Below, one piece after another: positions 1-34,099 of a DNA stretch of 64,000 bases. The notes under the pieces were generated by a model, which was given only the letters and a program-made list of their open reading frames with translations, made no database searches and was not told the origin of the DNA. Positions within the stretch are counted from its first letter, which is position 1; the number at the start of each line of letters is the position of its first letter. The DNA is taken from NCBI RefSeq assembly GCF_056746865.1, contig NZ_CM163382.1, one strand, 5' to 3'. A program made the position numbers and the translations under genes.

Positions 1-1846
1 CTCTATAGATCCTTTTAATATCGACCATATTGAAGTGATCTCCGGTGCGACGTCCCTGTATGGCGGCGGCAGTACCGGTGGCCTGATCAACATCGTGAGC
101 AAAAAAGGCCAGCCGGAAACCATGAAGGAGTTTGAGGCTGGCACCAAAAGTGGCTTTAGCAGCAGTAAAGATCACGATGAACGCATTGCCGGAGCTGTCT
201 CCGGCGGAAATGAGCATATCTCCGGACGTCTTTCCGTGGCATATCAGAAATTTGGCGGCTGGTTTGACGGTAACGGCGATGCCACCCTGCTTGATAACAC
301 CCAGACCGGCCTGCAGTACTCCGATCGGCTGGACATCATGGGAACTGGAACGTTGAACATCGATGAATCCCGGCAGCTTCAGTTGATCACACAGTACTAT
401 AAAAGCCAGGGCGACGACGATTACGGGCTTAATCTCGGGAAAGGCTTCTCTGCCATCAGAGGGACCAGCACGCCCTTCGTCAGTAACGGGCTGAATTCCG
501 ACCGTATTCCCGGCACTGAGCGGCATTTGATCAGCCTGCAGTACTCTGACAGCGCTTTCCTGGGACAGGAGCTGGTCGGTCAGGTTTACTACCGCGATGA
601 GTCGTTGCGATTCTACCCGTTCCCGACGGTAAATGCGAACAAACAGGTGACGGCTTTCTCTTCGTCACAGCAGGACACCGACCAGTACGGCATGAAACTG
701 ACTCTGAACAGCAAACCGATGGACGGCTGGCAAATCACCTGGGGGCTGGATGCTGATCATGAGCGCTTTACCTCCAACCAGATGTTCTTCGACCTGGCTC
801 AGGCAAGCGCTTCCGGAGGGCTGAACAACAAGAAGATTTACACCACCGGGCGCTATCCGTCGTATGACATCACCAACCTGGCGGTCTTCCTGCAATCAGG
901 CTATGACATCAATAATCTCTTTACCCTCAACGGTGGCGTACGCTATCAGTACACTGAAAACAAGATTGATGATTTCATCGGCTACGCGCAGCAACGGCAG
1001 ATTGCCGCCGGGAAGGCTATATCCGCCGACGCCATTCCTGGCGGCTCAGTCGATTACGACAACTTCCTGTTCAACGCTGGTCTGCTGATGCATATCACCG
1101 AACGCCAGCAGGCATGGCTCAACTTCTCCCAGGGCGTGGAGCTGCCGGACCCGGGTAAATACTATGGTCGCGGCATCTATGGTGCTGCAGTGAACGGCCA
1201 TCTTCCTCTAACAAAGAGTGTGAACGTCAGCGACAGCAAGCTGGAAGGCGTGAAAGTCGATTCTTATGAGCTGGGCTGGCGCTTTACTGGCAATAATCTG
1301 CGCACCCAAATCGCGGCCTACTATTCGATTTCTGATAAGAGCGTGGTGGCGAATAAAGATCTGACCATCAGTGTGGTGGACGACAAACGCCGTATTTACG
1401 GCGTGGAAGGTGCGGTGGACTACCTGATTCCTGATACTGACTGGAGTACCGGAGTGAACTTCAACGTGCTGAAAACTGAGTCGAAAGTGAACGGTACCTG
1501 GCAGAAATACGATGTGAAGACAGCAAGCCCATCAAAAGCGACAGCCTACATTGGCTGGGCACCGGACCCGTGGAGTCTGCGAGTGCAGAGCACCACCTCC
1601 TTTGACGTGAGCGACGCGCAGGGCTACAAGGTCGATGGCTATACCATCGTCGATTTGCTTGGCAGTTATCAGCTTCCGGTGGGTACACTCAGCTTCAGCA
1701 TTGAAAACCTCTTCGACCGTGACTACACCACTGTCTGGGGGCAGCGTGCGCCACTGTACTACAGCCCGGGTTACGGCCCTGCTTCACTGTACGGCTACAA
1801 AGGCAGGGGCCGCACCTTTGGTCTGAGTTACTCAGTATTATTCTGA
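1..1846 (+). CDS. iutA: TonB-dependent ferric aerobactin receptor, 5' end outside window
   Basis: Long ORF open from window start to stop at 1846; outer-membrane beta-barrel C-terminus ending in aromatic residue (GLSYSVLF); sequence recalled as IutA; sits next to sit operon as in aerobactin islands/ColV-type regions. Confidence 0.7.
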   Translation, partial: SIDPFNIDHIEVISGATSLYGGGSTGGLINIVSKKGQPETMKEFEAGTKSGFSSSKDHDERIAGAVSGGNEHISGRLSVAYQKFGGWFDGNGDATLLDNTQTGLQYSDRLDIMGTGTLNIDESRQLQLITQYYKSQGDDDYGLNLGKGFSAIRGTSTPFVSNGLNSDRIPGTERHLISLQYSDSAFLGQELVGQVYYRDESLRFYPFPTVNANKQVTAFSSSQQDTDQYGMKLTLNSKPMDGWQITWGLDADHERFTSNQMFFDLAQASASGGLNNKKIYTTGRYPSYDITNLAVFLQSGYDINNLFTLNGGVRYQYTENKIDDFIGYAQQRQIAAGKAISADAIPGGSVDYDNFLFNAGLLMHITERQQAWLNFSQGVELPDPGKYYGRGIYGAAVNGHLPLTKSVNVSDSKLEGVKVDSYELGWRFTGNNLRTQIAAYYSISDKSVVANKDLTISVVDDKRRIYGVEGAVDYLIPDTDWSTGVNFNVLKTESKVNGTWQKYDVKTASPSKATAYIGWAPDPWSLRVQSTTSFDVSDAQGYKVDGYTIVDLLGSYQLPVGTLSFSIENLFDRDYTTVWGQRAPLYYSPGYGPASLYGYKGRGRTFGLSYSVLF

Positions 1847-1910
1847 CAGGAATTCTTTGGAAACAAAGGTATGTTGATATAAGGGCCTTCCCTGATCATG
1901 GTGGGAAGGC

Positions 1911-3145
1911 TCAAAACGCCATATTCAGTTTCCCGTAGTGGAACATCACGCCCAGCTTAAAGCGTTCCCGATTGCGGTATCCCCTGGCTTTTATCCTCAG
2001 CAGCCTGAGCTTACTGTTAAGCGCCTCCGCGTTTCCGTTTGAGACACGGTGTCGCATGGCATTCAGGATCCCATACAGCCTTTTTCCTATCGTTTTCGTG
2101 GCGTTTTTCATCATAGTAATGTCACTGTTGGCCGCCAGAGCCAGCAATCTCTCCCACTCATTACGTCTTTCCTCACTTCATGGCCTGTTCCAGATATTCT
2201 TTGCCAGCTCTTTCAGCGCCCAGCACAGGCTTGTCAGCTTCATCTGTGCACGCAGCCATATCAGCTTTTCCTGCCTGGATTCGGTCATCCATTTATCGTT
2301 GTACTGCCACAGGAAGCGGGTCCCCTTTGCCTGACGCCGACTTTCAACAGGGAGGTGTGGATGTTCATCCTGACGGATTTTATCAACTACTTCACCAAGT
2401 TGCTTTGCTACATGGAAGCGGTCGAAGGCGATTTTCTCAACCGCACAGGGTAAGTGGATACGCGCTGCTCTTATACAGCCTGCATTCATGTCCATTGAGA
2501 GCGTTTTGATAGCCAGCAACTGCCCGTCAGTAAGCGTGCGAAGATAGCCGGCGAGGCTCTCTGTGCCACGATCGTCCGTTAAGGCCAGTGCACGACCATC
2601 GCGATCGGAGATCACAGTTATATAACAATGTCCTTTTTTAAAGGCGACCTCATCCACATTCATATGACGGGCGGATAATGGCTTTTTTATCCGGGCAAGA
2701 CCTCGCTTAACTGCCCGGGTCATAATGCCGTCAACCGCATTCCAGCTGAGCTTAAGTTGTTTCCTTACAGCATCAACAGTGCTGATTTTCAGCCATGAGA
2801 GAACGAGTCGAACAGCAGCGTATACCGCCTTCCGGGGCCAGCCCAGGGAACTAGCAACGTCTGGCAGCCATGCTCCGGGCACATAATGCGGGGCACATCG
2901 GCTTCGACAATAGTGGTGAACTGGCAGATATCAAGATGACGCCATTTACGATGACGGTGATCGTGAACAGAACAGGATTTACCGCAGGTCGGACAGGCTA
3001 ACCGGGCATTTTTAGCGATTCCAACTGTGACGGTAACAGAACCGGCGTTTTCATCGAGAGAAAGATATTTAACCTGCCATGGAGCGGTCAGGTTGATAAT
3101 ATGAGCGTAGAGGGACCTTTCGTCCATGGCGGTGACCTTTGGCAA
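1911..3145 (-). pseudogene. ISL3-family transposase, disrupted by two frameshifts
   Basis: Three consecutive minus-strand ORF pieces (2789-3145 zinc-finger N-term with CPTCG; 2178-2882 DDE core with NVDEVAFKKGH; 1911-2147 C-term with GYRNRERF) that together make one ISL3-like transposase. Confidence 0.5.
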
Positions 3146-3430
3146 TTAAAACACCATCATCATGCCTTCAGCCACCATAACAAGGGAAAACCCTGATATA
3201 CGGCCTTAAAAAGATATTCCGTCTCCGGAACGGACTGCTCACCACTGAATAACATTATGCCTGTTTTATGTATCTTTGACTGAAATTTATCGCATATCCT
3301 CATTTCATTGCCCGTATGAAAAGGTAAGCGAAAACCTACTGCCGTAGTAGCCATTGAGTAGTATTGGTAACATAGGTGCCAACATTTCAACTGATCTGCG
3401 CTAAGATCTTGGGTATTCTATGAAAAATGT

Positions 3431-3741
3431 GGTAGTGCTTCCAATCAGTAGAACATGTTCTTTTCAATGACGGAACCGATGACTTTTTCGTTGATTTTCA
3501 CGGAACGCGAGAAGCAGATTGTTTTACGTGCCAGCCGCTTGATGCGGGTGCGGAGGGGCAGGTTGTTAAGTTCAATAGGTTGCGTGAATATTTTACCGGT
3601 CAGGTATTTCTCCTTCGTCACTTCTCTGACGTTGCAGCCCCTGTCATTGCTGGTCACTATGCCGATATAGAACGAAGTCAACAGGGCTAACAGTTCCCGA
3701 CAGGTCTCATCATTCCGTGGCCCGAAAGAATAAGCCAACAC
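3431..3741 (-). pseudogene. IS1-family element right end with divergent InsB-like C-terminal fragment
   Basis: ORF 3445-3741 C-terminus parallels IS1 InsB (RLARKTICFSRSVKINEKVIGSVIE vs [26 protein letters not shown]); terminal sequence ggtagtgcttccaatcagtag at 3431 resembles the IS1 inverted repeat; 5' part absent. Confidence 0.45.
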
Positions 3742-4083
3742 ACCGCAGTTTTAGTGTTGTAAGCAGACCAGTGTTGTTGCGCCTTGCTGCCAACGAAATT
3801 TAACTGCTCATCAAGTTTCAAAGATAAGGGCAACATCAGCGTGAACGACTGGCGTAGATGTTATCCGCCGGGGCGAAAACATTTTTAATGTCCGTATGAC
3901 GGTATTGATGCCGATTTTCAGTGTTCATGGGTATCACGGACACCTGCGCCGTTATGTGCCATTTCAACGATCTGCTCCTTAACGCCGGGTTTCCTGACTT
4001 CACCAAGAGTAAGTGAGCTGGAAAACATGTTTTACATGAGCGACAACGGAAACGCTCATCTCGGGAACGTGTTCTTAACGGTT

Positions 4084-4170
4084 AGACTGGCCCCCCTGAA
4101 TCACCTGCAGTTGAAGGACAGTAACAGGTTAAGTGATAACAGATGTCTGGAAATATAGAGGTAAATCCAA
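4084..4170. mobile_element. Miniature IS2 remnant: IS2 left and right terminal repeats with almost all internal sequence deleted
   Basis: tagactggcccccctgaatcacc matches IS2 left end; gttaagtgataacagatgtctggaaatatagaggtaaatcca matches IS2 right end; only about 20 bp between them. Confidence 0.55.
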
Positions 4171-4435
4171 GGAAGTGCCACTTTTCATCCGTTGTTGACA
4201 ATACAGCAAAACTTGATGCTATTCGTACGCCCACAATGGAATGTGGATTCAAACTGAATATTCCGTTTGTTGATATGAGTGATTTGGGCAACGGTGGCAA
4301 CAAATAACTTTATACAGGAGCTGACGGTGTTTTCCTGATCATGCCGCCCATATTTTCTTCGGAGGTCGGGGACTTTCAATACCTTCCCCCGACACTCTAT
4401 GACTTCACAAGATTGTCTCCATGACTGCTATGTGC

Positions 4436-5314
4436 CTACAGATGTTGCTCTCTGGTTGTTGTACTAGTCGGGAGATCCTGTGGATCGACATTTTCCTTCG
4501 CGTGAGCATTGATGCTGGAAGCGGTAAACGTCAGGATGAATACAACCGTGAATAAGATAACAATCGTTGGTGCTGGTGCGCTGTCTATAAAAAAGGAGAG
4601 CCATACACCAGTCATTGAGACCATTACCGATATACCGAGCGCCAGCAGGAGCGCAATATGAAAGCGTTGCGTCAGGAGTACCGCAATGGCGCCAGGCGCA
4701 ATGAGCAGAGAAATGGAGAGAATGATACCTACCGCTTTCAGCGTCGCCACAATGGTCAGAGAGACCATGCACAGCAGCCCATAATGCAGCCATCTCGTAT
4801 GCAAACCGCTTACCTGCGCCTGTTGATAATCAAAGCTGAACAGCAAAAAATCCCGCCATTTTACGCTAATAACAAGTGTAACCAGCCCGGCAATAATCAC
4901 CGTCTGGATTATATCGCCGATGGTTACCCCGAGCATGTCGCCGAAAAGAATATGGTCAAGATGTACGTCGGGTTTGACTGCAATATACAAGATCAGACCT
5001 GCGGCAAACATGCCAGAAAAAACAATCCCCATCACTGTATCTTGCTTGATTCGGCTGTTGTCTTTCAGGTATCCCGTCGCCACCGCGCAGAATACTCCGG
5101 CGACGAATGCTCCTCCCGCCAGAGGAAAACCCAGTATCCACGCAAGCACGATACCAGGAAAAACCGCATGACTCATCGCGTCTCCCATCAGTGCCCAACC
5201 TTTCAGGACCAGAAAGACCGACAGCAGCGCACAGGGTATGGAAACTACCAGTGAAATCAGCAGTGCGTGACTCATAAAGGTGAACTGCAGTGGCTCCAGT
5301 AATAATGCCATCAT
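4436..5314 (-). CDS. sitD: Iron/manganese ABC transporter permease SitD
   Basis: 292-aa polytopic membrane protein; last gene of four-gene operon with overlapping stop/start codons. Confidence 0.85.
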   Translation of the reverse strand: MMALLLEPLQFTFMSHALLISLVVSIPCALLSVFLVLKGWALMGDAMSHAVFPGIVLAWILGFPLAGGAFVAGVFCAVATGYLKDNSRIKQDTVMGIVFSGMFAAGLILYIAVKPDVHLDHILFGDMLGVTIGDIIQTVIIAGLVTLVISVKWRDFLLFSFDYQQAQVSGLHTRWLHYGLLCMVSLTIVATLKAVGIILSISLLIAPGAIAVLLTQRFHIALLLALGISVMVSMTGVWLSFFIDSAPAPTIVILFTVVFILTFTASSINAHAKENVDPQDLPTSTTTREQHL

Positions 5315-7906: not shown

Positions 7907-7938
7907 AATTCAGTACCTATAGTGAGCAAAATTAGAAC

Positions 7939-7960
7939 AAACATAGCAACGGCTATGTTT
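7939..7960. promoter_or_regulatory. MntR-box-like perfect palindrome upstream of sitA
   Basis: aaacatagcaacggctatgttt, a perfect inverted repeat matching the recalled MntR operator of mntH, about 35 bp upstream of the sitA start. Confidence 0.5.
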
Positions 7961-7979
7961 TATAGCATAATCTATACAA

Positions 7980-8000
7980 ATGCAAATGGTTATCATTAAT
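7980..8000. promoter_or_regulatory. Fur-box-like element upstream of sitA
   Basis: atgcaaatggttatcattaat; minus-strand reading taatgataaccatttgcat resembles the GATAATGATAATCATTATC consensus. Confidence 0.35.
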
Positions 8001-8140
8001 GTATTTGTTTGTAAGTGATGAGATGCTCTTCCTCTCCTTCACGACAGCCTTCAATTACGCCATGATGGATAAACTGTAACCATAAAAGGAGAAATGTACT
8101 GAACACATCCTGCCCTGTTAAGAGAGGTGCACTGTGATGG

Positions 8141-9287
8141 ATGAAGGGTAAAATTGTCTGCTGTGGAGCCTCTCAGATTTCCGGCATCATAGTGCCCAAT
8201 ACGGGATGCAAAAGCGCCCTCAGACTGGCGACTCCACAAATGAAATATACACCGGTTGGCGTTGATATCGCAAAGTATCTGATTCAGGTTCACTTCATCA
8301 ATGAGTACACGGGCGAAGTGGTGGACAAGCAGCTACGTAGCAAGGATTTTCTGACGTTCTTCAGCAACCGGGAACCCTGTCTGATAGGTATGGAGGCTTG
8401 TGGAGGCTCCCAACATTGGGCGAGGGAACTGGAAAAAACTGGGACACAAAGTTCGGCTGTTGCAAGCTCGCTTCGTTAAAGCATTCGTCATGGGCAACAA
8501 AAATGATGTGATGGATGCGCGTGCTATCTGGATGGCGGTACAGCAGCCCAGTAAAGATATCGCTGTTAAAACGGAAGAGAAGCAGTCAGTTCTGGTCCTG
8601 CACCGTTCGCGCAGACAACTGGTGAAGTTCAGAACCTCGCATATTAATACCCTTGGCACGCTCCTCGAGTTTGGTGAAATCCTCCACAAAGATTGGACAG
8701 CGATGGACAGAAAGCTACCGACAGCCCTAGAGCGAATGAAGACGAACCTGCCGCCGTATCTCATCACTGTGCTTGAATACCAGTACAACAGACTGAGTGA
8801 GCTGGGCATGCAGATAGATGGCCTTGATAAACAGATTAACAGCGTGGCACGGCAGAGCGAAAACTGTAAGCGCCTAATGGAAATCCCCGGTGTGGGGCCG
8901 TTAATCGCTACGGCGGTGGTCGCCACCATGGGCGAGGCCTCAGCATTTAAATCCGGACGTGAGTTTGACGCTTATGTCTGTCTGGTGCCGAAGCAGACGG
9001 GGTCCGCTGGGAAGGTTCGCATGCTGGGGATAAGCAAACGTGGGGATACCTACCACCGGACATTATTTATCCATGGGGCAAGGGCGGCAGCATTGCTTAC
9101 CAAAGAACCCGGCCCATGGATCACGGAGCTGAAAAAACGGCAGCCGACAGGTGTAATGCCGATCAGTTTAGGAGCAGTTGACCGATCCAGGGTCTGTTTA
9201 AGAATCCTGAAACGCTCACTCGTTTCCGGATTTTTGTGCACAGAAAAACCCCAGCTAGGCTGGGGGCCGGAAAGCTTTCAGCTTTGA
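8141..9287 (+). pseudogene. IS110-family transposase, frameshifted
   Basis: ORFs 8141-8479 and 8400-9287 overlap in different frames; N-terminal GVDIAK/MEACG and C-terminal IPGVGP/GISKRG motifs. Confidence 0.6.
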
Positions 9288-9325
9288 GCCAGTTATTAAA
9301 ACCCCTTTTGATTTGTTAAAACACC

Positions 9326-9616
9326 TTGCGGTCTGGCAACTGCAAGTGTCAAACAAGAAATCAAAAGGGGGTCCCAATGGGGAACGAAAAGAGCTTAGCG
9401 CATACCCGATGGAACTGTAAATATCACATAGTTTTTGCGCCAAAATACCGAAGAAAAGTGTTCTACAGAGAGAAGCGTAAAGCAACAGGCAGTATTTTGA
9501 GAAAGCTGTGTGAGTGGAAAAGTGTACGGATTCTTGAAGCTGAGTGCTGTGCAGATCATATCCATATGCTTGTGGAGATCCCGCCCAAAATGAGCGTATC
9601 CGGCTTTATGGGATAG
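9326..9616 (+). pseudogene. IS200-family TnpA, 3'-truncated
   Basis: MGNEKSLAHTRWNCKYHIVFAPKYRR...HIHMLVEIPPKMSVSGFMG matches IS200 TnpA; left-end hairpin cccttttgatttgtt/aacaagaaatcaaaaggggg upstream; ORF cut short at 9616. Confidence 0.65.
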
Positions 9617-10347
9617 ACGGCATTAATCGCTTCCGGGAAGCCTTTCAGGCCGTCCACGAAGGCGATAAGGATATCGTTCAGGCCGCGATTTTTCAGTTCC
9701 GTCAGTACATTCAGCCAGAACTTTGCACCTTCATTTTCGGCCAGCCACATATCCAGCAGCTCTTTCTGACCGTCGGTATTGATGCCCAGCGCGAGGAACA
9801 CCGCTTTGTTAATGACACTCCCGCTGTGACGAACCTTAACCACAATACAGTCAAGATAAACAATGGGATACAGTGCATCCAACGGTCGGTTTTGCCATTC
9901 AGAGACCTGTTCTTTAACCGCATCGGTCACTTTGGATATCAGCGTGGGCGAGACATCGGCGTCGTACATTTCTTTGAAGGCTGAGGTAATTTCGCGGGTA
10001 GTCATCCCTCTGGCATACAGCGCCAGGATCTGGTTGTCCATGCCGGTAATGCGGGTCTGATTTTTCTTCACCAGTTGTGGTTCGAAGGAACCATCACGAT
10101 CAGGTGGAGTACGTAATTCCATCGGCCCGTCGGTAGTGGTGACGGTTTTCGTGGAATAGCCATTACGGAAGTTGGTTCCCGATTTGGTCTGATTTTTTTC
10201 ATGTCCCAGATGGTGAGTCAGTTCAGCGTTGAGAGCTGCCTCAACACTTATTTTCTTGAGCAGGCGATCGAACTGACTGAGATCTTCAGGGGTTTTGAGA
10301 TTTTTGGCCAGTTCGTTAGCCAGAGCCTGCAATTGTGTGTCGTCCAT
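9556..10347 (-). pseudogene. IS256-family transposase, C-terminally truncated
   Basis: 263-aa ORF with IS256-like N-terminus (LNAELTHHLGHEKNQ, VYLDCIVVKVR); abuts the truncated IS200 piece. Confidence 0.6.
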
Positions 10348-11267
10348 AATTTAGCTTTCATTTGATGTTGAATTGAACAGATCAAAATCAGGCAATTACA
10401 TAAATCTATGTACAGGCTCAATGCCGGCGCTGGTATTGTAGAAATCAATCCTGCCCCTGATGTCGGAGATACTCTCGTTAACCTTCCTGATTGTATCCTC
10501 TGCTCAGTCAATGGGTTGCCAATGGGGGCACCCTTTCCTGACTGATTCGTCATTTCATTCTTATTGTATGTTACTGGCATTACACCAGTGCTGGCATACT
10601 TTCCTGCGTGTCTGCACCGGTTTGACAAAATTCAACAGGGATAAAATAGTGCAGGAAACTGAAGCATTACTTGCAGAGCCGGGAGACATCCGGCGTTTTA
10701 TTCAACAGGCAGTGGATCACTGGCCGCATTTTCTGATTGTCCACTTCACACACAATTCGACAGAAGGAAACATCAACGGACAACAGATTCATGCATTCTG
10801 AACTTCCTTTTATGAACGTATTACTGAACGTAATCACACTGACAGTCCATCCTCGCCGGTGGTATTACGCTGGTTGCGTGAACAACATGAAGGAACAACA
10901 ATACCTGTTGCTGCTCAGCCATGTGGTGGCATGCAGCGGCACTTTAAGCAGCACAGGGCACTTTGAACTGCTCCGGGAATCCTGGAGACTAAACTCCCTG
11001 AGAAAGAGGTAAACAGGATGAGTATGATTCACAATTGGGGTAATTTGTTCCATTGCCTCAAATGCTGGCTGTACGCCACAGACTCTGCGTGTCTGGGTTA
11101 GCCAGTATGAGCGGGATACAGGGGCGCTTCACACATAACATTCCTTCTAATTTGCATAATTAATTACACTGATAGTCACATTCAATAACTATCATAAGCT
11201 ATCATCTGGCTGACTGTTATTTCGCAACAGTTATTGAGTAAATCTTTAACCTGTTAACAGAGGGTTT

Positions 11268-11792
11268 ATGAAACGTAAACTTATTGCCTTTGTGATTCTG
11301 GCTACATCATCCTGTGGATATGCAGCCACCAAAGATGTAACAATGAATCTTGTTGATAGTGACGGAAAAGAGCGAAATATTGGTAAAATAACCATCCAGA
11401 AGACACCCTACGGGCTGCTGTTCACCCCTGATCTTCACTCCTTACCCGCCGGCATTCATGGTTTTCATGTACATGAAAACGCAAGTTGTGCTCCTGCCCT
11501 GAAAGATGGAAAAACTGTCGCTGCTTTATCTGCAGGTGGTCACTTTGACCCGGAAAAAACAGGGAAGCATCTCGGTCCATGGTCTCCTGATGGCCACCTA
11601 GGTGATCTCCCTGCGCTTTATGTCACTCATGACGGAAAAGCAACCTACCCGGTGCTTGCGCCAAGACTATCTGAATTAAAGGAGCTCGATGGCCGTTCGC
11701 TAATGCTCCACGCAGGAGGTGATAATCATGATGACCATCCTGAACCTCTAGGTGGCGGTGGTGCAAGAATTGCCTGTGGTATCATCCCATAA
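11268..11792 (+). CDS. sodC: Periplasmic Cu/Zn superoxide dismutase, acquired paralogue
   Basis: 174 aa with signal peptide, copper-site histidines (HGFHVHE, GGHFDPE) and C-terminal [12 protein letters not shown]; diverged from chromosomal SodC as recalled. Confidence 0.8.
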
Positions 11793-11799
11793 TCAATCA

Positions 11800-11822
11800 G
11801 GTAAGGGATATCCTCCCTTACC
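11800..11822. terminator. Hairpin between convergent genes, possible bidirectional terminator
   Basis: ggtaagggatatcctcccttacc inverted repeat directly after the sodC stop. Confidence 0.3.
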
Positions 11823-11920
11823 CTTAATCTTCCCTGGCGGCATGTGCATATCTTTCAGTTACTGTGAGATACCTGTATTACGGTGTCTTTTTAGCTCACA
11901 GAAATATCAGACAGCCCGTT

Positions 11921-12145
11921 TCAGTGTTTTATTACCTTAATCTTTTTACGGCATTCTTCAGCTCTTGCGCATGCTATTTTTTCACCTGTTTCATAACATT
12001 GCTGGCAGCCTAATCCAAATTTCATCGCCATATCATAACCTTCCCGAAAACCTCGGAACCACGCGTTACGAAGGTATTCATCATATTCCCCGTAGTCAAT
12101 AATAACCATTTTATTTTCATGGGATTTTCCGGTATTCTCACTCAT
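11921..12145 (-). CDS. Small cysteine-containing hypothetical protein
   Basis: ORF track gives 119 aa; internal start MSENTGK is preceded by a GAGG ribosome-binding site; convergent with sodC. Confidence 0.3.
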   Translation of the reverse strand: MSENTGKSHENKMVIIDYGEYDEYLRNAWFRGFREGYDMAMKFGLGCQQCYETGEKIACARAEECRKKIKVIKH

Positions 12146-12959
12146 TTTCGATACCTCAATGCTTACAACAGAAAAGTATACTTTTACGAAGTTCGCCTTT
12201 GCAGGACTATATAAAGTTATCACTGGATGCAAGAGCCGGAAATCATGTATATCAGGATCAACTTTGTAATTCAATAACATATTATCCAGTGAAAAAGTAA
12301 GTATATTTAAGCTGGGGAAGGAGAAGGGGGACTTAATTTGATATTTTCATCAATAATATTATTTTACCTCCTCCATTATTCATTCAGGCCTGGTTCCGGG
12401 CGTAATTCCGATTTCTCTGTTGAAGCGATGCATTTATATTTAAATATTCACCTGTCATTGAATTTTATTTGAAATAGGAGAAAATCTCCTCCTGTACTAC
12501 AGATAACCCGGAATGTTCCTCGAAAGAAAATTCTGGCGCAGAATTCACGCCCGGTTCTGTTCAACATCATGCAGGATAACGATACCGAAACGTTAAACTC
12601 TGGCAATTCTCGTGTTATACACAGGCAGGAGTGATTACTACGGTAAGAATTGCTGAAAAGGGGAGAACACTGAAGGCCTTATTCGCGAAGAATAAAGGAG
12701 ACATTTCATGTAAATTATTATCAGAGATAACCTTCTCCAGGCGCTTTTGTTCGCTTCCTGAATTGCTACCTGATACATATTTACGGGATGCCAGCCTGGT
12801 GACTATAACTCCGAAAAGACCGATTATTGTATTGCGTGCATCCGGCATGTTTACAATGTACGCTGGTATCTAACGGAGTCTGACACAGATGCACGCAGGT
12901 GTATATTTTAACGTAATTATCCGGAAGGAACAGTATATTTTAATGCGGGAGTTGCATGA

Positions 12960-13777
<818 letters not shown>

Positions 13778-14116
13778 TAATTACACTGTGGGTTGACGCC
13801 GGAAGAATCAGAGAACAGATACCGTTCTTACTGTAAAACGTGGCTAATATTAATTGAGCACTGCAGTGTTCAGAGCACAAAGAAGAAAAAAGATGTGTGC
13901 GAATGCCTGTAATGTGTTAAAAGAATGTTCCGCGTTTCCGGTACGCTTTTCGTAACTAACAATGCAGGGTGACGTAACGCTGGTTGTGCCGGAAACGCGT
14001 CCCTCCCCCTATCTTTCCTGTTTGGATTTGCCCCTATATTTCTGGATTATCCGACAAAACCGGCGTGAAGTATTACTCTCGTCGCCCAGCACCATAAGGA
14101 TAACGCCCATAAAATC

Positions 14117-14482
14117 ATGAAACTTTTCTTCCAGATTGGATACAATCAGGCCGTATCCCGTATTACAGGCTTATCACGTGTGACAGTCAGTCTCTGGGTG
14201 TGTTCAGGAACATTCCCTGAAATGTCAACCCGGCCTCCAGAGCGAGGACTTCTGGCCCCATGGAGGGAGTGGTTAAAAGAGCAACGAGAAAGTGGTAACT
14301 TCGGCGCGTGGCTGCAAGGATGGCAGCTGATGCTGCGGCTATATGTGAGGCAATCGGCAGTCGCTGGAATAATGGGGGTTGTCGAAAGTCATGTAAATAG
14401 ACTAAAAATGCTGAAAGGCCAGATGTATGGTCGAGCCGGATTTGAACTACTCAGACAGAGGGTCATGAGTCCACTGGCATGA
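14117..14482 (+). CDS. Hypothetical protein with possible AlpA-like helix-turn-helix
   Basis: 121-aa ORF containing ITGLSRVTVSLW...FPE; weak resemblance only. Confidence 0.2.
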   Translation: MKLFFQIGYNQAVSRITGLSRVTVSLWVCSGTFPEMSTRPPERGLLAPWREWLKEQRESGNFGAWLQGWQLMLRLYVRQSAVAGIMGVVESHVNRLKMLKGQMYGRAGFELLRQRVMSPLA

Positions 14483-14690
14483 AAATCTCCATCCAGGTTG
14501 CGTAAGAGCCACTTTTCATCCGTCGTCGATATCTGGGATAGCCATAGTGAAATAAAAAGCTGTCTGAATTAAATTATTTTGCACATATATTTTAATCCTG
14601 CACTGAATTAAGAATGGGTAATCAGTGACTGCTTGGACGGTCACTTTTAAGAGAAGGCATTAACAGAGAATGGTAAACAGGCTCAATATA

Positions 14691-15143
14691 TTATGTTGTT
14701 GGCACTACAGATGAATGATGGGATGATATTTTCCAATCCTTTCCATCCCACTCATAAGCGAAACTATAGCGTGCTGAAACTTGTTTTTTATCTTCAAAAG
14801 TAAACGTGTAATTCCCTGTATCAAGAGCCATATTGCATCCAATGCGAATAGTTCTGAAGTTTATTTCTCCAACAGGTTTTTTTTTCAAAAAATGCTCAAA
14901 ATAGTCAACTCTTTCTGCATCTGTAATCCTAATTTTTTTTGATACTGTGGGCAGTAAGATCGCATCACTTAAATAGTTATCAGCAACCTTCTTGGCATCA
15001 CCTGTTTTTAATGATTCATTCCAGCGATCGAATAACCTTTCAATGTCTTTACTATCTACCCGAATACACTTAACATTATCTACGTCACTTGCCCACGACG
15101 CTCCAGAAAACAGACACAGAATTAAAATATTTATTTTTTTCAT
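14691..15143 (-). CDS. Secreted hypothetical protein, possibly NTF2/SnoaL-like fold
   Basis: 150 aa with clear signal peptide (MKKINILILCLFSGASWA); AT-rich codon usage; fold guess from size and composition only. Confidence 0.45.
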   Translation of the reverse strand: MKKINILILCLFSGASWASDVDNVKCIRVDSKDIERLFDRWNESLKTGDAKKVADNYLSDAILLPTVSKKIRITDAERVDYFEHFLKKKPVGEINFRTIRIGCNMALDTGNYTFTFEDKKQVSARYSFAYEWDGKDWKISSHHSSVVPTT

Positions 15144-15317
15144 AACTCCTCCTGATCAGCCTGAAACTTTTTTAAAGTTTAATCATATTAATACAGTGCA
15201 ACTATTTGATAGTAAAAACGATGTTCTCTATTTTGTTAATAGATACTTCCTATTGTGTATATATTATGAGATTATTAAGAATAATACTCTCTGGGTCGTA
15301 GAGACAGGGTATAAGTC

Positions 15318-15760
15318 ACAGGCTGGTGTGGTTCGGATGTTCTTGCCCCCTCAATATCAGACTGCTATTGTATCTTAAGTTAACGTTATCCGCTGACGTC
15401 GATATTCCCGTGGTGAGAGATAACCTAACGCACTATGCGGATGGTTTTCATTGTAATGCTCGAACGCCTCTGCAAGGTTATGCAATGCCGTTATTACATT
15501 CAGTTTCGGCATGAACGCGATGTAGTCTTCATTCACGTTTTCACGAACCTTTCTGCCATTCTATTGCTCTGAGGGCTACTGACTGCCGTCGTGCAGGGCT
15601 CCAGATTCAACTCTCTGGCGAATTGCCGTGTTTCATGAGCCGTATAAGCCGAACCGTTATCCGTCCGCCACTGGATTGCTCGTTCCGGTCCTTTATCGCC
15701 AAAGCGTTTTTCTATCGCTCCTAACATCACATCCTGCACTGTCGGCTTTATCGTAACCTC
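15318..15760 (-). pseudogene. IS2-like (IS3 family) orfB C-terminal fragment with right inverted repeat
   Basis: [15 protein letters not shown]...[19 protein letters not shown]...[26 protein letters not shown] parallels IS2 OrfB; in-frame stop; terminal repeat ttaagatacaatagcagtctgatattgagggggcaag is IS2-IRR-like. Confidence 0.5.
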
Positions 15761-15789
15761 CCGTACTGGTCACGGGCAGACTGTTCATC

Positions 15790-16503
15790 ATGTTAAACCC
15801 AGCCGCTGTCAGATCATGCACCGGCCGGATGGCGGGCTGACCTGCCCCGCCGCGCTGCTGCCCGCCAATCCATTTCTTACCTTCCTTCCCGGTGGCCTGA
15901 CGTCCGGCCTCGTCCCCTTTCACCGCATCACCGTCACCGCTGTTCACCACCTTCTTGTACTCTTCCAGCATCGCTGGCCTGCGTCCATTTGCTGCGATCA
16001 GAAAAGTCCATCATCCGTTTTGCCATGTTCTGGCAGTTCAGTTACGCCTTGTCGAAAGCCACATTCGCCTGCAGCACACCGTTGGTGATCATGTCGTACA
16101 GGCCGGGGTTGGCACGCTGTATCACCATCGCCGGCAGACTGGCAGCGGCGCCGGTCGCCCCCTAAATCACATCCCCCATCAGATTTTTAAAGCCGTCGGT
16201 CAATCCGTTAAGATGATTACCCACCGTGGTCTTCAGGTCAAAGTTGCCGCACATCAGATCGCTGCTCCAGCCCAGGTCCATACCCAGCTTCTGCATGTTG
16301 CTGCGCGTGGCCAACTGTGAGATCACCGAGCCGCCACCCAGCGTATAGAACAGTTTGTCGGATACGGCGCCATCCACGGATTTCCCGTAACCGAACGTGC
16401 TGTCATTCAGTTTCGGCAGGGAAAGAAGATCAGCCATCGCCGGAATACTGCAGTACAGCATCACACTCAGTGCCACCATACCTGTTTTCATCTTCATCAT
16501 CAT
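15790..16503 (-). pseudogene. TraH-like conjugative transfer protein, disrupted
   Basis: ORF 16162-16503 has signal peptide and TraH-like N-terminus; reading continues in other frames to about 15790 with stops. Confidence 0.35.
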
Positions 16504-16509
16504 GGTTCC

Positions 16510-18365
16510 TTAAAAATTCGTACTGCCAAGGAATCGCTGCCCGCGCTTTTCGAAGCAGCTGTAAGGCTGCCACAGTGCAAAGGCTGCATTACCGTTCTCC
16601 GCCGCCTGGTGTTCACCATCCGGGAAAACGGCACAGGAACGCGACACTGACGGCGTCAGTCGCTGCCATTTGTGATTGCGGGTGCCGGTGTTTTCCTCCA
16701 CCGCCTCCGGGGGCCAGTAGCCGTCACGTTTCACGCCCTTAACCTCCCTGTAGACATGCGACTCCCCCATCCGCGTGATAATGTCGGCCACCCGCTGAGC
16801 CCCCACCGCCGCGGCCCGGTCATCATCGCTCTGCATCACAAAACCACTCCGGTGATAAACGCTCCCCCACATGTTTTTATCGGCCTAGCTGCCAATCTCG
16901 CGTTTGCCGGGAACCTGTGCCTCTGGATACAGGGATTCAGGTAATCCCGTTCGCTAGACGATGCTGTCCAGGGTACTGAGGAAATAGGCCATGGCCGGTG
17001 TCACCGGTGAATCACAGCTGAATCCGGGTACCATCCCGCCGATAAGCTGTGTGGCCGGATGACCCAGCGCATCTGCATATTTGAAACGAATTGCTGAACG
17101 GCGCTTCCCCTGTATTTTCATATCCGCCGGATTTCCCCCGCCGGCACTCAGCCCGGACAGGCCGTCAGTGATGGCATTCTCCGGGCCACCTGCGGTCCGG
17201 CTGACCAGCGACATCTCTTTCCAGGGATTACCACCCGGTGCCGTATAGGTGGAAATAACCACTTCCGGGATGAAATGTGTCACCTTCACGGAAATTCTGA
17301 CCGTACAGCCAGACGCGCTGCAGTAAAGCCAGTAACAAATCCCGCTGACACGCCAGCTGATATAGTCCGGTGCCGCAGTACTGGCGATAATGCTGGCGGT
17401 GTTCAGTGATACAGACGCCAGGGGCAGTGATGCCACACTCAGTAACAGCACGCCGGTACGCAGACGACATTTCAGGGACATCATGGCTGCACTCCTCCCT
17501 CAGCACGGATTTTCCCGGCCATCACCACATCCATGGTGCCGTAAACCACCTCACTGTCATCAAACACCACGGCAGGGTATTTCTTCACGCCCAGCGACTA
17601 GGCATGTGCCACATCGCGGTAATGACCGGCCAGTTCCGCCTGCATCGTCTGCCATTCGGGAGACTTCATACGTACCCTGACCACCGATTCAGCCTCACCC
17701 GCATCAGCAGGCAACAGGCCCCAAAAGCGGCTCTGAAGCTGCTCAGGCGCATCCAGCAGAACCACCCTGACACCATCAGGAGGATTAACGGGAAGATGCT
17801 GAGAATCGGTATAAATTGTTGTGCCGGCAGACGCTGCCAGCGGCAGGAAAAACAGGGAACAGAAAATCCGGTACATCGTACACCTCAGTCAGATATTATC
17901 TGACTGACAGCGTGCGAAGAAAGCGCTCATTTATCAGCAATAAATTAAAAACGGGATTAAAAAATTACGGTGGGATCCGGGGAAGTGTATCTGCCAAGCA
18001 TAACAGACAGTCTGTGATTATACCCGGCCTTTCACAAAGCCGGGGAACTGATTCATACCAAGTGGTGATTTTCAACAATAAGTATAATGAGGTTGTCCCG
18101 GCACCGGTGGCAGTGGTTCGAGATAGACGTCATCAACAAAAACACAGGGGAATTTTTCAACTGCACATCCAGCACGCTCAGACATTACCTTCAGACTGAT
18201 ACCATGTTTCTCAGCATCAATAAAGAGGACATCTGCCCCTGTTTCATCCCGGAGATTTGTCGCATGATGCATGATCCGGTGTACTGAAGGACATGTTTTG
18301 TAACCAAAAACACATATACGCATGTTGCACCTCCTGATCACTGGTTGACGCCGATAATAAAACAA
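16510..18365 (-). pseudogene. Degraded conjugation-module remnants (TraU-like, signal-peptide protein, glutaredoxin-like protein)
   Basis: Co-directional short ORFs 16510-16872, 16954-17484 (CxxxxC motif ICYWLYCS), 17598-17876, 18072-18365 (CPSV glutaredoxin-like), separated by in-frame stops. Confidence 0.3.
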
Positions 18366-18809
18366 TAATGTGAGCGTAAAAAATGCACCTCATACCACAT
18401 TTCTGTAAAAGGCTCTGGCTATCACTGCAAAAAGCAAAATCTTAATTCCAGCATCACTTGTTACTCTCATTCCGTCACTTATATTTACCCACATGGCGAT
18501 GTATTTAATTACTGCCCATAAGAATAAAAGCCGCTGGCGGATTATTTCTTTATTACCCGGATGCGGTCACAAGCCCACACATCGTCAACTACCTGCCGGT
18601 AATATTAACTGTCAGAAGAACGCATACATCCGGATGTTTACAGAGTCGCGCGCCTGGTCACAGGTGACAACAGAAGTATGCCATACTAAAGGAGTAAACG
18701 GCGGGTCACTGGTGATCAAACACCTGCATCGTGTGTTGCTGCCACTGCCCTCAGGTGACAGAGGCAGCATCTTTACGTATTATAATGCGTTATATCGGGT
18801 TTGTTGTTA

Positions 18810-20897
18810 TCAGAACTGATAGTTCAGCGACATCCAGTAATTTCTCTCAGGTATCACATAACCCGTTGTCGATGCCCCCGTCTGGAAGTAATCACCCGCA
18901 TAAAGCGTACCACTGCCGGCACGATACAGACTTACGTCACTGTAATCCTTGTTAAGCACATTATTCACCGCTGCATTCAGCATCAGTGCATCCGTCACTT
19001 TCCACGACATGCCCGCATCCAGTACCGTCCAGGCTTTCAGATATTCACCTTTCTCATCATACACTTTCTTCTGTACAGCTGAGAGTGACGAATAATTCTG
19101 GGTGAAACGTGGCGTTTTCCCGCGGTAACGGGCACCCAGCCATGATGTCACCTCTTCAGTAATCTGCCAGTTCAGTTTCGCATTCACCATATGCTCAGGG
19201 GTGTAACTCAGTGGTGCACCTTTATTATCCCCATCCCGTTGTTCACTCTGCGTCCAGGTATAATTCAGAGACAGAGTCACATCCTCTGACAACAGAGGCA
19301 GTGTGCCGGCAAATTCCACGCCCTGAGTCCTAGCCTTTCCGCTGTTTGTGTAGCTGCGGGTATTATCATCAATGGAATAAGATACGATCTTGTTGGAGAA
19401 TTCTGTCATAAAGCCCGTGATATTGGCGTTCAGACCGGCATGATTATCGTAATACACGCCCGCTTCATAACTGACACTCTCCTCCGGCTTCAGGTCCGGG
19501 TTACCGAGAAGATTCGTACGCCCCTGACCGGACACACCGCTGATCCCCTTATGTAACTGCCCCATGCTGGGCGCCTTATATCCCGTGGTCACCCCACCTT
19601 TCAGCGTCCACGCATCAGTCACATCCCAGACCATATATGCCCGGGGACTGAAGTGTCCTCCGAACACCTCATAGCGTTCATAGCGGCTACCCGCAGTCAG
19701 TGCAAATGCATCCGTGATATACCACTCATCCTCAACAAATGCCGACCAGCTTTTCTGACGGAAGGTTTCACCAGTACTGGCGAGAACAACCCCGTCTTTC
19801 ATGGAGGAGTTCTGATACTCACCACCGACGGTAACCTTGTGTGATTCCCCCAGAGGTGCAAACAGTAATGAGCTCAGGATAAGATTCGACTCCTTAAGCT
19901 CCCTCGGCTGGCCGGCAAGCCCCCATTTATCACGCTGCAGTACGCTACGTACAAGCTGACGGCCTTTATTTTCCGTCTCATTCCAGTTCAGAGATGACTT
20001 CCAGGCTCCGAAGGTGAATGTATGATCATAGCCTGCTGAAATTTTATTACGCTCATAGCGCAGGGTGCGATCATAACCGCCCGTCAGACTGCCCAGCTGG
20101 CCATCTCGGTTATCATAACGCTGCCGGGCGATATCCATATCAATCCAGAGTACATCCTTGTCCGTCGCTTTCCAGTCAAGACGACCACCTGCATTATAAT
20201 TCTGTGATTCCGTGGGATAAGGGATACGCGTAGCTGAGGTGTCGCTCAGTGATGTGACCGATGAGCCCTGACGCTGCTGTGTGCTGCCACGTACCTGAAG
20301 GCTGAGTGAATCATCCACAAGGGGACCGCTGCTCCAGAAATTAAACTGGCTGCTGTTCCCCCATTTGTTACTTTCCTGCAGGTTCAGCCCGGCATTAACC
20401 GAAGAGCGCCATTTGTCTGCATTCTTTTTGGTGATGATATTCACCACGCCCCCCATGGCATCAGAGCCGTACAGAGTGGACATGGGGCCCCTGATAATCT
20501 CAATACGTTCGATGGCGGCCAGAGGTGGCATAAAACCCGTATTCATGGCAGCATAACCGTTTGGGGTTACGTCACTGCTCCCGCCCTGACGGACACCATC
20601 GATCAGTATCAGCGTATAACTGGCAGGCATTCCGCGGATGCTGATTTCGAGCCCACCTGTTTTACCCGTACCGCTTTCAACATCCACCCCCTCTACGGAT
20701 CTCAGTGCCTCCCCCAGATCATGATACTGGCTGGATCGCAAATCCTCCTGGCTGATCACTGAAACACTCGCAGCTGCACTGGTTAATTTTTTTTCATAGC
20801 CAGACGCCGTGACTACCATCACATCTTCCGCAGCCATACTGCTGACTGAAAACCCGAGACAAGGGATGGCTACTGAAGCCAGAGTGGTTACTCGCAT
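18810..20897 (-). CDS. iha: TonB-dependent siderophore receptor/adhesin, Iha-like (IrgA homologue)
   Basis: 695 aa with signal peptide, TonB-box-like EDVMVVTAS, plug plus beta-barrel, C-terminal aromatic residue; size and sequence recalled as Iha. Confidence 0.6.
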   Translation of the reverse strand: MRVTTLASVAIPCLGFSVSSMAAEDVMVVTASGYEKKLTSAAASVSVISQEDLRSSQYHDLGEALRSVEGVDVESGTGKTGGLEISIRGMPASYTLILIDGVRQGGSSDVTPNGYAAMNTGFMPPLAAIERIEIIRGPMSTLYGSDAMGGVVNIITKKNADKWRSSVNAGLNLQESNKWGNSSQFNFWSSGPLVDDSLSLQVRGSTQQRQGSSVTSLSDTSATRIPYPTESQNYNAGGRLDWKATDKDVLWIDMDIARQRYDNRDGQLGSLTGGYDRTLRYERNKISAGYDHTFTFGAWKSSLNWNETENKGRQLVRSVLQRDKWGLAGQPRELKESNLILSSLLFAPLGESHKVTVGGEYQNSSMKDGVVLASTGETFRQKSWSAFVEDEWYITDAFALTAGSRYERYEVFGGHFSPRAYMVWDVTDAWTLKGGVTTGYKAPSMGQLHKGISGVSGQGRTNLLGNPDLKPEESVSYEAGVYYDNHAGLNANITGFMTEFSNKIVSYSIDDNTRSYTNSGKARTQGVEFAGTLPLLSEDVTLSLNYTWTQSEQRDGDNKGAPLSYTPEHMVNAKLNWQITEEVTSWLGARYRGKTPRFTQNYSSLSAVQKKVYDEKGEYLKAWTVLDAGMSWKVTDALMLNAAVNNVLNKDYSDVSLYRAGSGTLYAGDYFQTGASTTGYVIPERNYWMSLNYQF

Positions 20898-20946
20898 ATC
20901 TTCTCTCCGATTATATTAATCAGAGAGAAGATAAACAAACGCAAGA

Positions 20947-20965
20947 GATAATGAGAATGATTTGC
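20947..20965. promoter_or_regulatory. Fur box upstream of the Iha-like receptor gene
   Basis: gataatgagaatgatttgc, strong match to the Fur consensus, about 50 bp upstream of the start. Confidence 0.45.
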
Positions 20966-21209
20966 TTTTGGTTTTTACATAAAAAAGCAAAAAATTACAA
21001 AATATTACATAAGGTTCTACTATACCCCGAATTTCAGTTGAGGACGTTCTTTTCTCTAGGGGAAAGTAACGGATAGCAATCGTTGACGATCCATATCGGA
21101 TTTTTGCACTATGGGTATTTATCCAATCTTTATCAGTTTCTTGTCCTTGGATATGTTAATCATACACTATCGGATATTTCGTACATCAGACAGGTGAATA
21201 TAATTAATA

Positions 21210-22620: not shown

Positions 22621-22628
22621 AGATCATC

Positions 22629-33895: not shown

Positions 33896-34099
<204 letters not shown>

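What the first reader, a model, noticed from the sequence alone, without database searches (positions are those of the whole stretch)
1..20965. Three metal-uptake loci (iutA, sitABCD, Iha-like receptor) plus an acquired sodC, stitched together by IS debris
Intact virulence-associated cargo alternates with truncated IS elements (ISL3, IS1-like, mini-IS2, IS110, IS200, IS256, IS3-family, IS2-like) and a decayed conjugation module. The arrangement looks like a pathogenicity island or integrated plasmid segment assembled by successive IS-mediated events rather than one contiguous ancestral island.
Basis: partly seen in the sequence, partly recalled or inferred. Interest (0 to 1): 0.45.

Follow-up and report, generated by a model that had tools for sequence, protein, structure and literature searches.

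The report
Mosaic E. coli iron-uptake pathogenicity island
This stretch is an ordinary, already-sequenced piece of a large E. coli pathogenicity island at the pheU tRNA site, where intact iron/manganese-uptake genes and an extra superoxide dismutase sit between dead insertion-sequence fragments that let the island invert, lose or duplicate blocks.

Summary
Window 1-20965 carries intact iutA (cut by the window start), sitABCD, an accessory sodC and a divergent iha. These are separated by nine transposase remnants, none intact, and by two stop-riddled ICE transfer genes.

In close relatives the region lies inside a ~113.5 kb island between tRNA-Phe (pheU) with its integrase and cadC. It is a tRNA-linked pathogenicity island, not an integrated ColV plasmid segment.

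Each cargo module recurs elsewhere with edges at or next to the IS debris:
- iutA: 98% identical to ColV, homology ends at 1880.
- sit: 95% identical to ColV, 4475-7998.
- sodC module: 11204-14153, 99.5% identical in six unrelated contexts.
- iha: 18800-20985, only 86% nt / 90% aa identical to CFT073/O157 iha.

GC3 ranges from 0.28 to 0.70 across modules.

About 51 of 55 complete genomes with this island carry the 31.8 kb between the copies flipped, so iha lies ~30 kb from sodC. The window's order occurs in none of 5,426 complete RefSeq genomes but in three other assemblies at up to 99.98% identity.

This is known biology and of low interest.

The parts
1..1846 (+). iutA, ferric aerobactin receptor (3' 603 codons; the 5' end is cut by the window start)
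   Evidence: RefSeq annotation of a 99.97% identical genome. TonB-dependent siderophore receptor by NCBIfam. 98.0% identical to ColV plasmid iutA, with homology ending at 1880.
1911..3127 (-). ISL3-family transposase pseudogene (frameshift, internal stop)
   Evidence: Pfam DDE_Tnp_ISL3, Zn_ribbon_ISL3
3445..4057 (-). IS1-family transposase fragment, lacking the N-terminus and divergent from IS1A
   Evidence: PF03400. No nucleotide match to a canonical IS1 copy.
4119..4202 (.).
   Evidence: 90-92% and 96% identity
4436..7906 (-). sitDCBA, intact Mn2+/Fe2+ ABC importer operon; the module shared with ColV plasmids spans 4475-7998
   Evidence: 95.1% identical to ColV sit
7939..8000 (.). sit promoter: perfect MntR-type palindrome AAACATAGCAACGGCTATGTTT (7939-7960) and a Fur-like box (7982-8000, 14/19)
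   Evidence: both consensus sequences are from my own knowledge
8240..9170 (+). IS110-family transposase fragment
   Evidence: PF02371
9231..9613 (+). IS200 left end with STnc490 RNA (9246-9367) and a truncated tnpA (9377-9613)
9610..10347 (-). IS256-family fragment lacking the C-terminus. It is the direct-repeat partner of a full-length IS256 upstream of iucA in relatives.
11204..14153 (.). 2.95-kb sodC module: sodC (11268-11792, +), a 74-aa hypothetical (11921-12145, -) and an IS3 fragment (13071-13702)
   Evidence: The module is continuous at 99.4-99.6% in six unrelated genomic contexts.
13123..13725 (.). Copy 1 of a perfect 603-bp inverted repeat (IS3-derived); recombination site for the 31.8-kb inversion
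45521..46123 (.). Copy 2 of the 603-bp inverted repeat (outside the finding's coordinates)
   Evidence: 100% identical, inverted
14154..14483 (+). Transposase remnant at the right edge of the sodC module
   Evidence: no Pfam hit to its ORF
14691..15143 (-). SgcJ/EcaC-family protein, intact, GC3 0.28
15376..15768 (-). IS2-like (IS3-family) integrase-core remnant
   Evidence: 71-74% identical to IS2
16162..17876 (-). ICE transfer-module relic: a 113-aa hypothetical, a TIGR03756/TraU pseudogene (16510-17484) and a TIGR03757/DUF1525 pseudogene (17481-17876)
   Evidence: (2 stops)
18810..20897 (-). iha variant (695 aa, intact); the module shared with canonical iha spans 18800-20985
   Evidence: 90% aa / 85.8% nt identical to CFT073 Iha
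20947..20965 (.). Fur-like box (15/19), 50-68 bp upstream of iha

Best explanation
Window 1-20965 is an internal segment of a large chromosomal pathogenicity island. In close relatives this island is integrated at the pheU tRNA-Phe gene next to cadC.

It carries four independently derived cargo modules that still look functional:
- iutA, the last gene of iucABCD-iutA, encoding a TonB-dependent ferric-aerobactin receptor.
- sitABCD, a Mn2+/Fe2+ ABC importer that keeps its MntR and Fur operators.
- An accessory periplasmic Cu,Zn superoxide dismutase, SodC.
- A divergent Iha catecholate-siderophore receptor/adhesin with a Fur-like box.

Together these plausibly serve metal acquisition and oxidative-stress resistance in the host. 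That function is inferred from the families and was not tested here.

The modules are joined by truncated IS copies and a dead ICE transfer module. No transposase in the 21 kb is intact, so present-day plasticity comes from homologous recombination between the IS remnants. Three variants show this:
- A perfect 603-bp inverted repeat (13123-13725 / 45521-46123) flips the 31.8 kb between its copies. This puts iha either 7 kb (this window) or ~30 kb (most genomes) from sodC.
- Two IS256 copies in direct orientation bracket the iuc-iutA-sit block, which is absent in one relative.
- A further variant has an inverted duplication of the sit-sodC end.

The window's orientation preserves the native 2.95-kb sodC module, so it is probably the original state.
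For: Gene identities.

Island context: tRNA-Phe plus integrase at one end and cadC at the other, ~113.5 kb apart, in 23CRST007. There is no tRNA in the window itself.

Module edges and independent occurrence:
- iutA homology to ColV ends at 1880 (98.0%), and sit homology spans 4475-7998 (95.1%).
- The sodC module 11204-14153 is one continuous match at 99.4-99.6% in six contexts with unrelated flanks.
- iha homology to the roughly 1,500 complete genomes that match only at 80-95% identity, including CFT073, O157:H7 and O104:H4, is confined to 18800-20985 at ~86%, with 90% aa identity.
- The sodC allele is at >=99% in only 125 records. A 76-78% relative is in 571 records, and the remaining genomes give no match.

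Composition: GC3 is 0.67 (iutA), 0.48-0.57 (sit), 0.35 (sodC), 0.28 (SgcJ), 0.70 (ICE relic) and 0.55 (iha).

Inversion:
- The 603-bp repeat is perfect.
- Relatives align as window 1-13725 followed by 46123 running downward.
- Of 55 complete genomes holding >=80% of 13000-24000, only 4 run through the sodC-side junction.
- None of 5,426 has 1-21000 colinear.
- Three other assemblies have the window's order, two of them as a single 20.2-kb match at 99.95-99.98%.

Deletion variant: L035 lacks iuc-sit, and its junction falls in a ~460-bp stretch identical between the two IS256 copies.

Regulatory sites: only 3 sites in 64 kb have <=5 mismatches to the Fur consensus. Two of them lie directly upstream of sitA and iha. 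A perfect MntR palindrome lies 33 bp upstream of sitA.
Against: - The order and mechanism of the original assembly cannot be reconstructed. No target-site duplications or intact IS ends were shown at the module edges.
- The iutA-sit-sodC block (1-13725) is invariant in every context that holds the exact SitA protein. That part behaves as one inherited unit within this island family.
- The polarity of the IS256-bounded variant (deletion or insertion) is undecidable.
- Function of the cargo is inferred from family membership only.
- iucD is annotated as frameshifted in two relatives, so aerobactin synthesis may be defective upstream of the window.
Confidence: 0.85

Rival explanations
1. The segment is a chromosomally integrated piece of a ColV/ColBM-type virulence plasmid (the conserved virulence plasmidic region, which also carries iucABCD-iutA next to sitABCD).
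For: ColV plasmids also hold aerobactin and sit within ~3 kb of each other, and they share 1-1880 (98%) and 4475-7998 (95%) with the window.
Against: - Homology is limited to the two cargo modules.
- On ColV the order is iutA-iucDCBA / shiF / crcB / sitDCBA. Here the iutA end faces sitD, so the aerobactin block is flipped, and crcB is absent.
- There are no RepFIB, tra or other backbone genes.
- 95% identity rules out recent transfer.
- The island sits at a tRNA with a P4-type integrase.
Confidence: 0.05
2. One contiguous ancestral island was acquired once, and IS elements later inserted into it and decayed. On this reading the IS debris marks later hits, not assembly joints.
For: - The 13.7-kb iutA-sit-sodC block is identical in all ten contexts of the exact SitA protein.
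- The whole 20.2 kb is colinear in other assemblies.
- Fresh IS insertions into the island are seen: IS66 at 26086-28539, plus IS1, IS66, IS5 and IS2 insertions in relatives.
Against: - Homology to other carriers of each cargo stops at or next to the IS remnants.
- The sodC module occurs with four or more unrelated flank sets.
- GC3 differs by up to 0.4 between neighbouring modules.
- iutA and sit differ in their divergence from ColV (98% against 95%).
Confidence: 0.1
3. The sodC-to-SgcJ/iha junction in the window is an assembly artefact caused by the 603-bp perfect repeat.
For: The arrangement is absent from all 5,426 complete RefSeq genomes. A 603-bp exact repeat can mislead short-read assemblers.
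Against: - Three independent assemblies with Mb-scale contigs show the same junction (L029, L037, L049).
- XH992 and EC6563 also have the same junction. They belong to a group of four complete genomes that cover it fully.
- The sodC module runs uninterrupted through this junction in six other contexts.
Confidence: 0.03

Closest known systems
PAI iuc/iut family (SHI-2 / SHI-3 aerobactin islands of Shigella; SHI-3 at pheU), as reviewed in PMC7545054
   Same: Chromosomal iucABCD-iutA with the shiF-like MFS gene. In relatives it sits in a tRNA-Phe island with an integrase and many IS remnants, at the same pheU/cadC site as SHI-3 (PMC7545054).
   Different: The island here is ~113 kb against 21-30 kb. 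It additionally holds sitABCD, sodC, an iha variant and ICE relics. I could not compare it directly with Shigella chromosomes, because no such collection was available.
PAI-ED1a-pheU (Iha, aerobactin) and PAI I-CFT073 (pheV: hly, pap, iha, sat, aerobactin), listed in PMC7545054
   Same: iha and aerobactin lie in one tRNA-Phe island, and iha is flanked by IS fragments.
   Different: The iha here is a divergent allele: 85.8% nt and 90% aa identical to CFT073. There is no sat, and sit and sodC are present. Canonical iha homology ends within ~90 bp of the ORF.
Conserved virulence plasmidic region of ColV/ColBM IncF plasmids
   Same: Aerobactin and sitABCD are close neighbours, and the sit promoter region is shared up to 7998.
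   Different: Identity is 95-98%. The aerobactin block is inverted relative to sit. crcB and the plasmid backbone are absent. The location is chromosomal.
Chromosomal aerobactin + sitABCD locus of E. coli IAI39 (Fig. 1E of PMC7592755)
   Same: [quoted passage not shown]
   Different: I did not retrieve the IAI39 sequence, so identity and orientation are untested.
Prophage-borne accessory sodC of STEC/O157 and Salmonella sodCI-type genes
   Same: A second, horizontally acquired periplasmic Cu,Zn-SOD that passes the SodC equivalog model. It is 76-78% nt identical to the STEC copies.
   Different: It is not in a prophage. It travels as a 2.95-kb sodC-hypothetical-IS3-fragment module found in several islands.

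Membership tests
tRNA-associated pathogenicity island (classical PAI criteria) | Carries virulence-associated genes | tested here: met
   iutA, sitABCD, iha and sodC are identified by NCBIfam and RefSeq annotation.
tRNA-associated pathogenicity island (classical PAI criteria) | Inserted at a tRNA gene with an adjacent integrase | tested here: met
   Shown in the relative 23CRST007: tRNA-Phe at 2620708-2620783 with a tyrosine recombinase, and cadC at the far end ~113.5 kb away. The window itself contains no tRNA, so this rests on relatives.
tRNA-associated pathogenicity island (classical PAI criteria) | Atypical or mosaic base composition and mobility-gene remnants | tested here: met
   Segment GC is 0.37-0.56 and GC3 is 0.28-0.70. 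There are nine IS remnants plus ICE relics.
tRNA-associated pathogenicity island (classical PAI criteria) | Present in a subset of strains only | tested here: met
   Of 5,426 complete genomes, >=99% matches are in 125 records for this sodC allele and in 59 genomes for this iha allele. Association with disease was not tested.
Integrated ColV-type plasmid segment | Colinear with the plasmid iutA-iucDCBA / shiF / crcB / sitDCBA region and flanked by plasmid backbone genes | tested here: not met
   Only 1-1880 and 4475-7998 match, at 98% and 95%. The aerobactin block is flipped, and there is no crcB or RepFIB.
SitABCD Mn/Fe ABC importer | Four intact genes in the order sitA-B-C-D: ZnuA-type binding protein, ATPase and two ABC-3 permeases | tested here: met
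   ORFs are 304/275/285/292 aa. SitB passes equivalog NF011630 (585 bits against 393). Pfam families are ZnuA, ABC_tran and ABC-3 x2.
SitABCD Mn/Fe ABC importer | MntR- and Fur-controlled promoter | tested here: inconclusive
   A perfect MntR-type palindrome and a 14/19 Fur-like box lie upstream of sitA. The consensus sequences are from memory and binding was not tested.
Iha (bifunctional siderophore receptor/adhesin) | Full-length match to the Iha equivalog model | tested here: met
   PRK13486: 1536 bits against a cut-off of 924, covering residues 1-694 of the protein scanned, which lacked the initiator Met.
Iha (bifunctional siderophore receptor/adhesin) | Near-identity to the characterised O157/CFT073 protein; adhesin and catecholate-uptake activity | not testable with these tools
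   Only 90% aa identity to CFT073 Iha. Activity of this allele is unknown.
Periplasmic Cu,Zn superoxide dismutase SodC | Passes the SodC equivalog model; Sod_Cu domain | tested here: met
   NF007628: 218 bits against 165. PF00080 is present. Metal ligands and the signal peptide were not checked.
Integrative conjugative element (TIGR03756/TIGR03757 PFL_4710-type transfer genes) | Intact transfer gene set | tested here: not met
   Only two adjacent genes remain, and both have internal stops.
IS256-bounded composite unit carrying iuc-iutA-sit | Block bracketed by two same-orientation IS256 copies and able to move or excise as a unit | tested here: inconclusive
   A relative lacks exactly this block, with the junction in a 460-bp stretch identical between the copies. 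One copy is truncated. No target-site duplication was examined, and polarity is undecidable.

The most novel reading that the evidence does not exclude
The 603-bp inverted repeat might make the 31.8-kb iha-to-group-II-intron segment a recurrently flipping switch whose orientation matters, for example by changing transcriptional context or the linkage of iha with the iutA-sit-sodC block. Separately, the divergent Iha allele (90% aa identity, in ~1% of complete genomes) might have a different ligand or adhesion specificity from canonical Iha. Nothing here excludes either possibility. No gene or promoter is visibly disrupted or created by the inversion, so a neutral polymorphism is far more likely.
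Probability: 0.07. Interest if true: 0.35.

Novelty: already known. Interest (0 to 1): 0.12.

Why it matters
It matters little beyond bookkeeping. Aerobactin and sit are among the loci most associated with extra-intestinal virulence in Escherichia (PMC7592755), and this island links them with a second siderophore receptor and an extra SodC in poultry- and human-associated strains.

The practical points are these:
- Short-read assemblies will break or mis-join at the 603-bp repeat.
- Gene-presence typing will call this iha allele 'iha' although it is 14% divergent at the DNA level.
- The whole iuc-sit block is flanked by repeats, and one relative lacks exactly this block.

Tried and rejected
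- An exact Fur-box search with <=3 mismatches found nothing. A relaxed scan was needed.
- My first Iha look-up failed because I used wrong minus-strand coordinates that dropped the start codon. I repeated it correctly. The same one-codon offset affects the minus-strand queries and does not change the family assignments.
- The apparent '1-14616' matches looked like extra colinearity. They turned out to be the tool joining a non-colinear IS piece upstream of iucA.
- I tried to polarise the IS256-bounded iuc-sit presence/absence variant. The crossover falls in a 460-bp stretch identical between the two copies, so deletion and insertion cannot be told apart.
- A canonical IS1 copy gave no nucleotide match to the window. 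The IS1 assignment rests on Pfam and RefSeq only.
- Literature searches found reviews of the component islands but no paper naming this specific pheU island.
- A junction-spanning pattern search in the big contig collections was not possible, because the repeat (603 bp) exceeds the 600-base pattern limit.
- Rfam found only IS- or intron-associated RNAs.
Full report
**What is in the sequence**

Window 1-13725 is a single 99.9-100% match to dozens of complete E. coli chromosomes. Window 13000-24000 is a 100% match to others. Their RefSeq annotation, my NCBIfam/Pfam scans and precomputed Pfam hits on identical proteins give the following map:

| Coordinates | Strand | Feature |
|---|---|---|
| to 1846 | + | iutA (cut by the window start) |
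| 1911-3127 | - | ISL3 pseudogene |
| 3445-4057 | - | IS1-family fragment |
| 4119-4169 |. | 51-bp IS2 end, plus a 25-bp match at 4178-4202 to IS2-flanking plasmid sequence |
| 4436-7906 | - | sitDCBA, intact |
| 8240-9170 | + | IS110 fragment |
| 9231-9613 | + | IS200 left end, with Rfam STnc490 at 9246-9367 |
| 9610-10347 | - | IS256 fragment |
| 10649-10903 | + | UCP030791 remnant |
| 11268-11792 | + | sodC |
| 11921-12145 | - | 74-aa hypothetical |
| 13071-13702 | + | IS3 fragment |
| 14154-14483 | + | transposase remnant |
| 14691-15143 | - | SgcJ/EcaC gene |
| 15376-15768 | - | IS2-like remnant |
| 16162-16503 | - | 113-aa hypothetical |
| 16510-17484 | - | TIGR03756/TraU pseudogene |
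| 17481-17876 | - | TIGR03757/DUF1525 pseudogene |
| 18810-20897 | - | iha |

Both transfer-gene pseudogenes carry internal stops. None of the nine IS-derived pieces is intact. They cover 25% of the interval and intact cargo covers 40%.

**Where it sits**

The window holds no tRNA. In strain 23CRST007 the same DNA lies in an accessory block bounded by two features:
- dsbD-dicD-tRNA-Phe (pheU) with an intact tyrosine recombinase, at 2,620,708.
- cadC at 2,734,349, about 113.5 kb away.

This is the pheU site, also used by SHI-3 of Shigella boydii and by PAI-ED1a-pheU, which carries Iha and aerobactin (PMC7545054). The region is a classical tRNA-linked pathogenicity island.

**Is it a mosaic?**

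Each cargo module recurs elsewhere, and homology stops at or next to the IS debris.

- **ColV plasmids.** They share only 1-1880 (98.0%) and 4475-7998 (95.1%). On those plasmids the order is iutA-iucDCBA / shiF / crcB / sitDCBA. The aerobactin block is therefore flipped relative to sit compared with the island, and no plasmid backbone is present here.
- **sodC.** The gene is part of a 2,950-bp module (11204-14153). This module occurs as one continuous match at 99.4-99.6% in six places with unrelated neighbours: an ABC transporter and LysR, ArsP and IS66, a type I methylase, and an autotransporter.
- **sodC allele.** It is at >=99% in 125 records. A 76-78% relative, annotated sodC in STEC strains, is in 571 records. 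The other ~4,700 genomes give no match, so it is clearly accessory.
- **iha.** Homology to the roughly 1,500 complete genomes that match only at 80-95% identity, among them CFT073, O157:H7 and O104:H4, is confined to 18800-20985 at ~86% nt. Protein identity to CFT073 Iha is 90%. This allele is at >=99% in only 59 of 5,426 complete genomes, so 'Iha-like' is an apt label.
- **Composition.** GC3 is 0.67 for iutA, 0.48-0.57 for sit, 0.35 for sodC, 0.28 for SgcJ, 0.70 for the ICE relic and 0.55 for iha.

These points support assembly from separate sources. The order and mechanism of the joins are inferred, not shown.

The window contains a perfect 603-bp inverted repeat at 13123-13725 and 45521-46123.

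- In most relatives, window 1-13725 is followed by 46123 running downward. The 31.8 kb between the copies is inverted, and iha lies ~30 kb from sodC instead of 7 kb.
- Of 55 complete genomes holding >=80% of 13000-24000, only four run through the sodC-side junction.
- The two of those that I inspected, XH992 and EC6563, have dnd/dpt genes instead of sit upstream of sodC. XH992 also carries an inverted second copy of the sit-sodC end.
- None of 5,426 complete genomes has 1-21000 colinear.
- The window's order is nevertheless real. GCA_974490305.1 and GCA_045609445.1 match 790-21014 as a single alignment at 99.95% and 99.98%. GCA_900448615.1 shows the same gene order.
- The sodC module runs uninterrupted through 13725 to 14153 in six unrelated contexts. 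The window's orientation therefore preserves the native module and is probably ancestral, with the common state derived. This is an inference.

**Other recombination variants**

- One relative (L035) lacks the whole iuc-iutA-sit block. Its single IS256 is a hybrid of the copy upstream of iucA and the truncated copy at 9610-10347. The switch lies in a ~460-bp stretch identical between the two copies. This fits deletion by homologous recombination or the reverse event, and I could not polarise it.
- Relatives also carry fresh IS1, IS2, IS5, IS66 and IS3 insertions.
- The window has its own intact IS66-family element at 26086-28539 with an 8-bp duplication.

**How it most likely works**

The cargo is intact and retains plausible control sites (the consensus sequences are from my own knowledge):
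- A perfect MntR-type palindrome at 7939-7960.
- A Fur-like box at 7982-8000, upstream of sitA.
- A Fur-like box at 20947-20965, upstream of iha.

These are two of only three sites in the 64 kb with <=5 mismatches to the Fur consensus.

By family knowledge, IutA imports ferric aerobactin, SitABCD imports Mn2+/Fe2+, Iha takes up catecholate siderophores and mediates adherence, and SodC removes periplasmic superoxide. None of this was tested here.

iucD is annotated as frameshifted in two relatives. Aerobactin synthesis upstream of the window may therefore be defective while the receptor remains.

**Comparison with known systems, and verdict**

The region meets the PAI criteria. It fails the test for an integrated ColV segment.

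All components and the kind of island are well known, and near-identical copies are already annotated in public genomes. I found no paper naming this specific island. PMC7592755 depicts chromosomal aerobactin and sit operons in strain IAI39. The inversion polymorphism is a modest structural detail.

Interest is low.

Noticed in passing
window 26086-28539: Intact IS66-family element with three ORFs (134, 115 and 512 aa), termini GTAAGCG...CGCTTAC and an 8-bp target duplication CTTGTATC. It is absent from every related locus that spans this site (L002, L003, L019-L028), so it is a recent insertion specific to the window's strain.
   Followed up: yes
window 55999-57702 and 60145-61848: A perfect 1,704-bp inverted repeat: two IS3-family copies (273- and 180-aa ORFs) flanking an IS21-family element (istA 513 aa, istB 249 aa). 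This is another potential inversion or composite structure.
   Followed up: partly
L001 13286-14619 and L004 10036-11369 (upstream of the window start in relatives): iucD is annotated as frameshifted in two independent complete genomes that carry this island, while iutA is intact. The strains may use aerobactin without making it.
   Followed up: no
L002 (XH992) 814-16685; L003 (EC6563) 19463-35334: In some relatives a dndBCDE / dptFGH phosphorothioation defence system lies directly upstream of the sodC module, in place of the sit-iutA block.
   Followed up: partly
window 31277-31419 (-) and 44886-44972 (+): Rfam hits to isrN (138 bits) and to group II intron domains V/VI. The intron hit lies next to an ltrA pseudogene, placed at about 43373-44881 by mapping from L001.
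   Followed up: no
window 63923-64000: The window ends inside an IS2 copy (78 bp, 96-99% identical to an IS2 end).
   Followed up: no
L006 / L010 7926-9861 versus window 51051-53008: In two other genomes, a 97%-identical copy of a segment from the far part of this window lies immediately upstream of another sodC module. This suggests that further shared IS66-related sequence links these islands.
   Followed up: no
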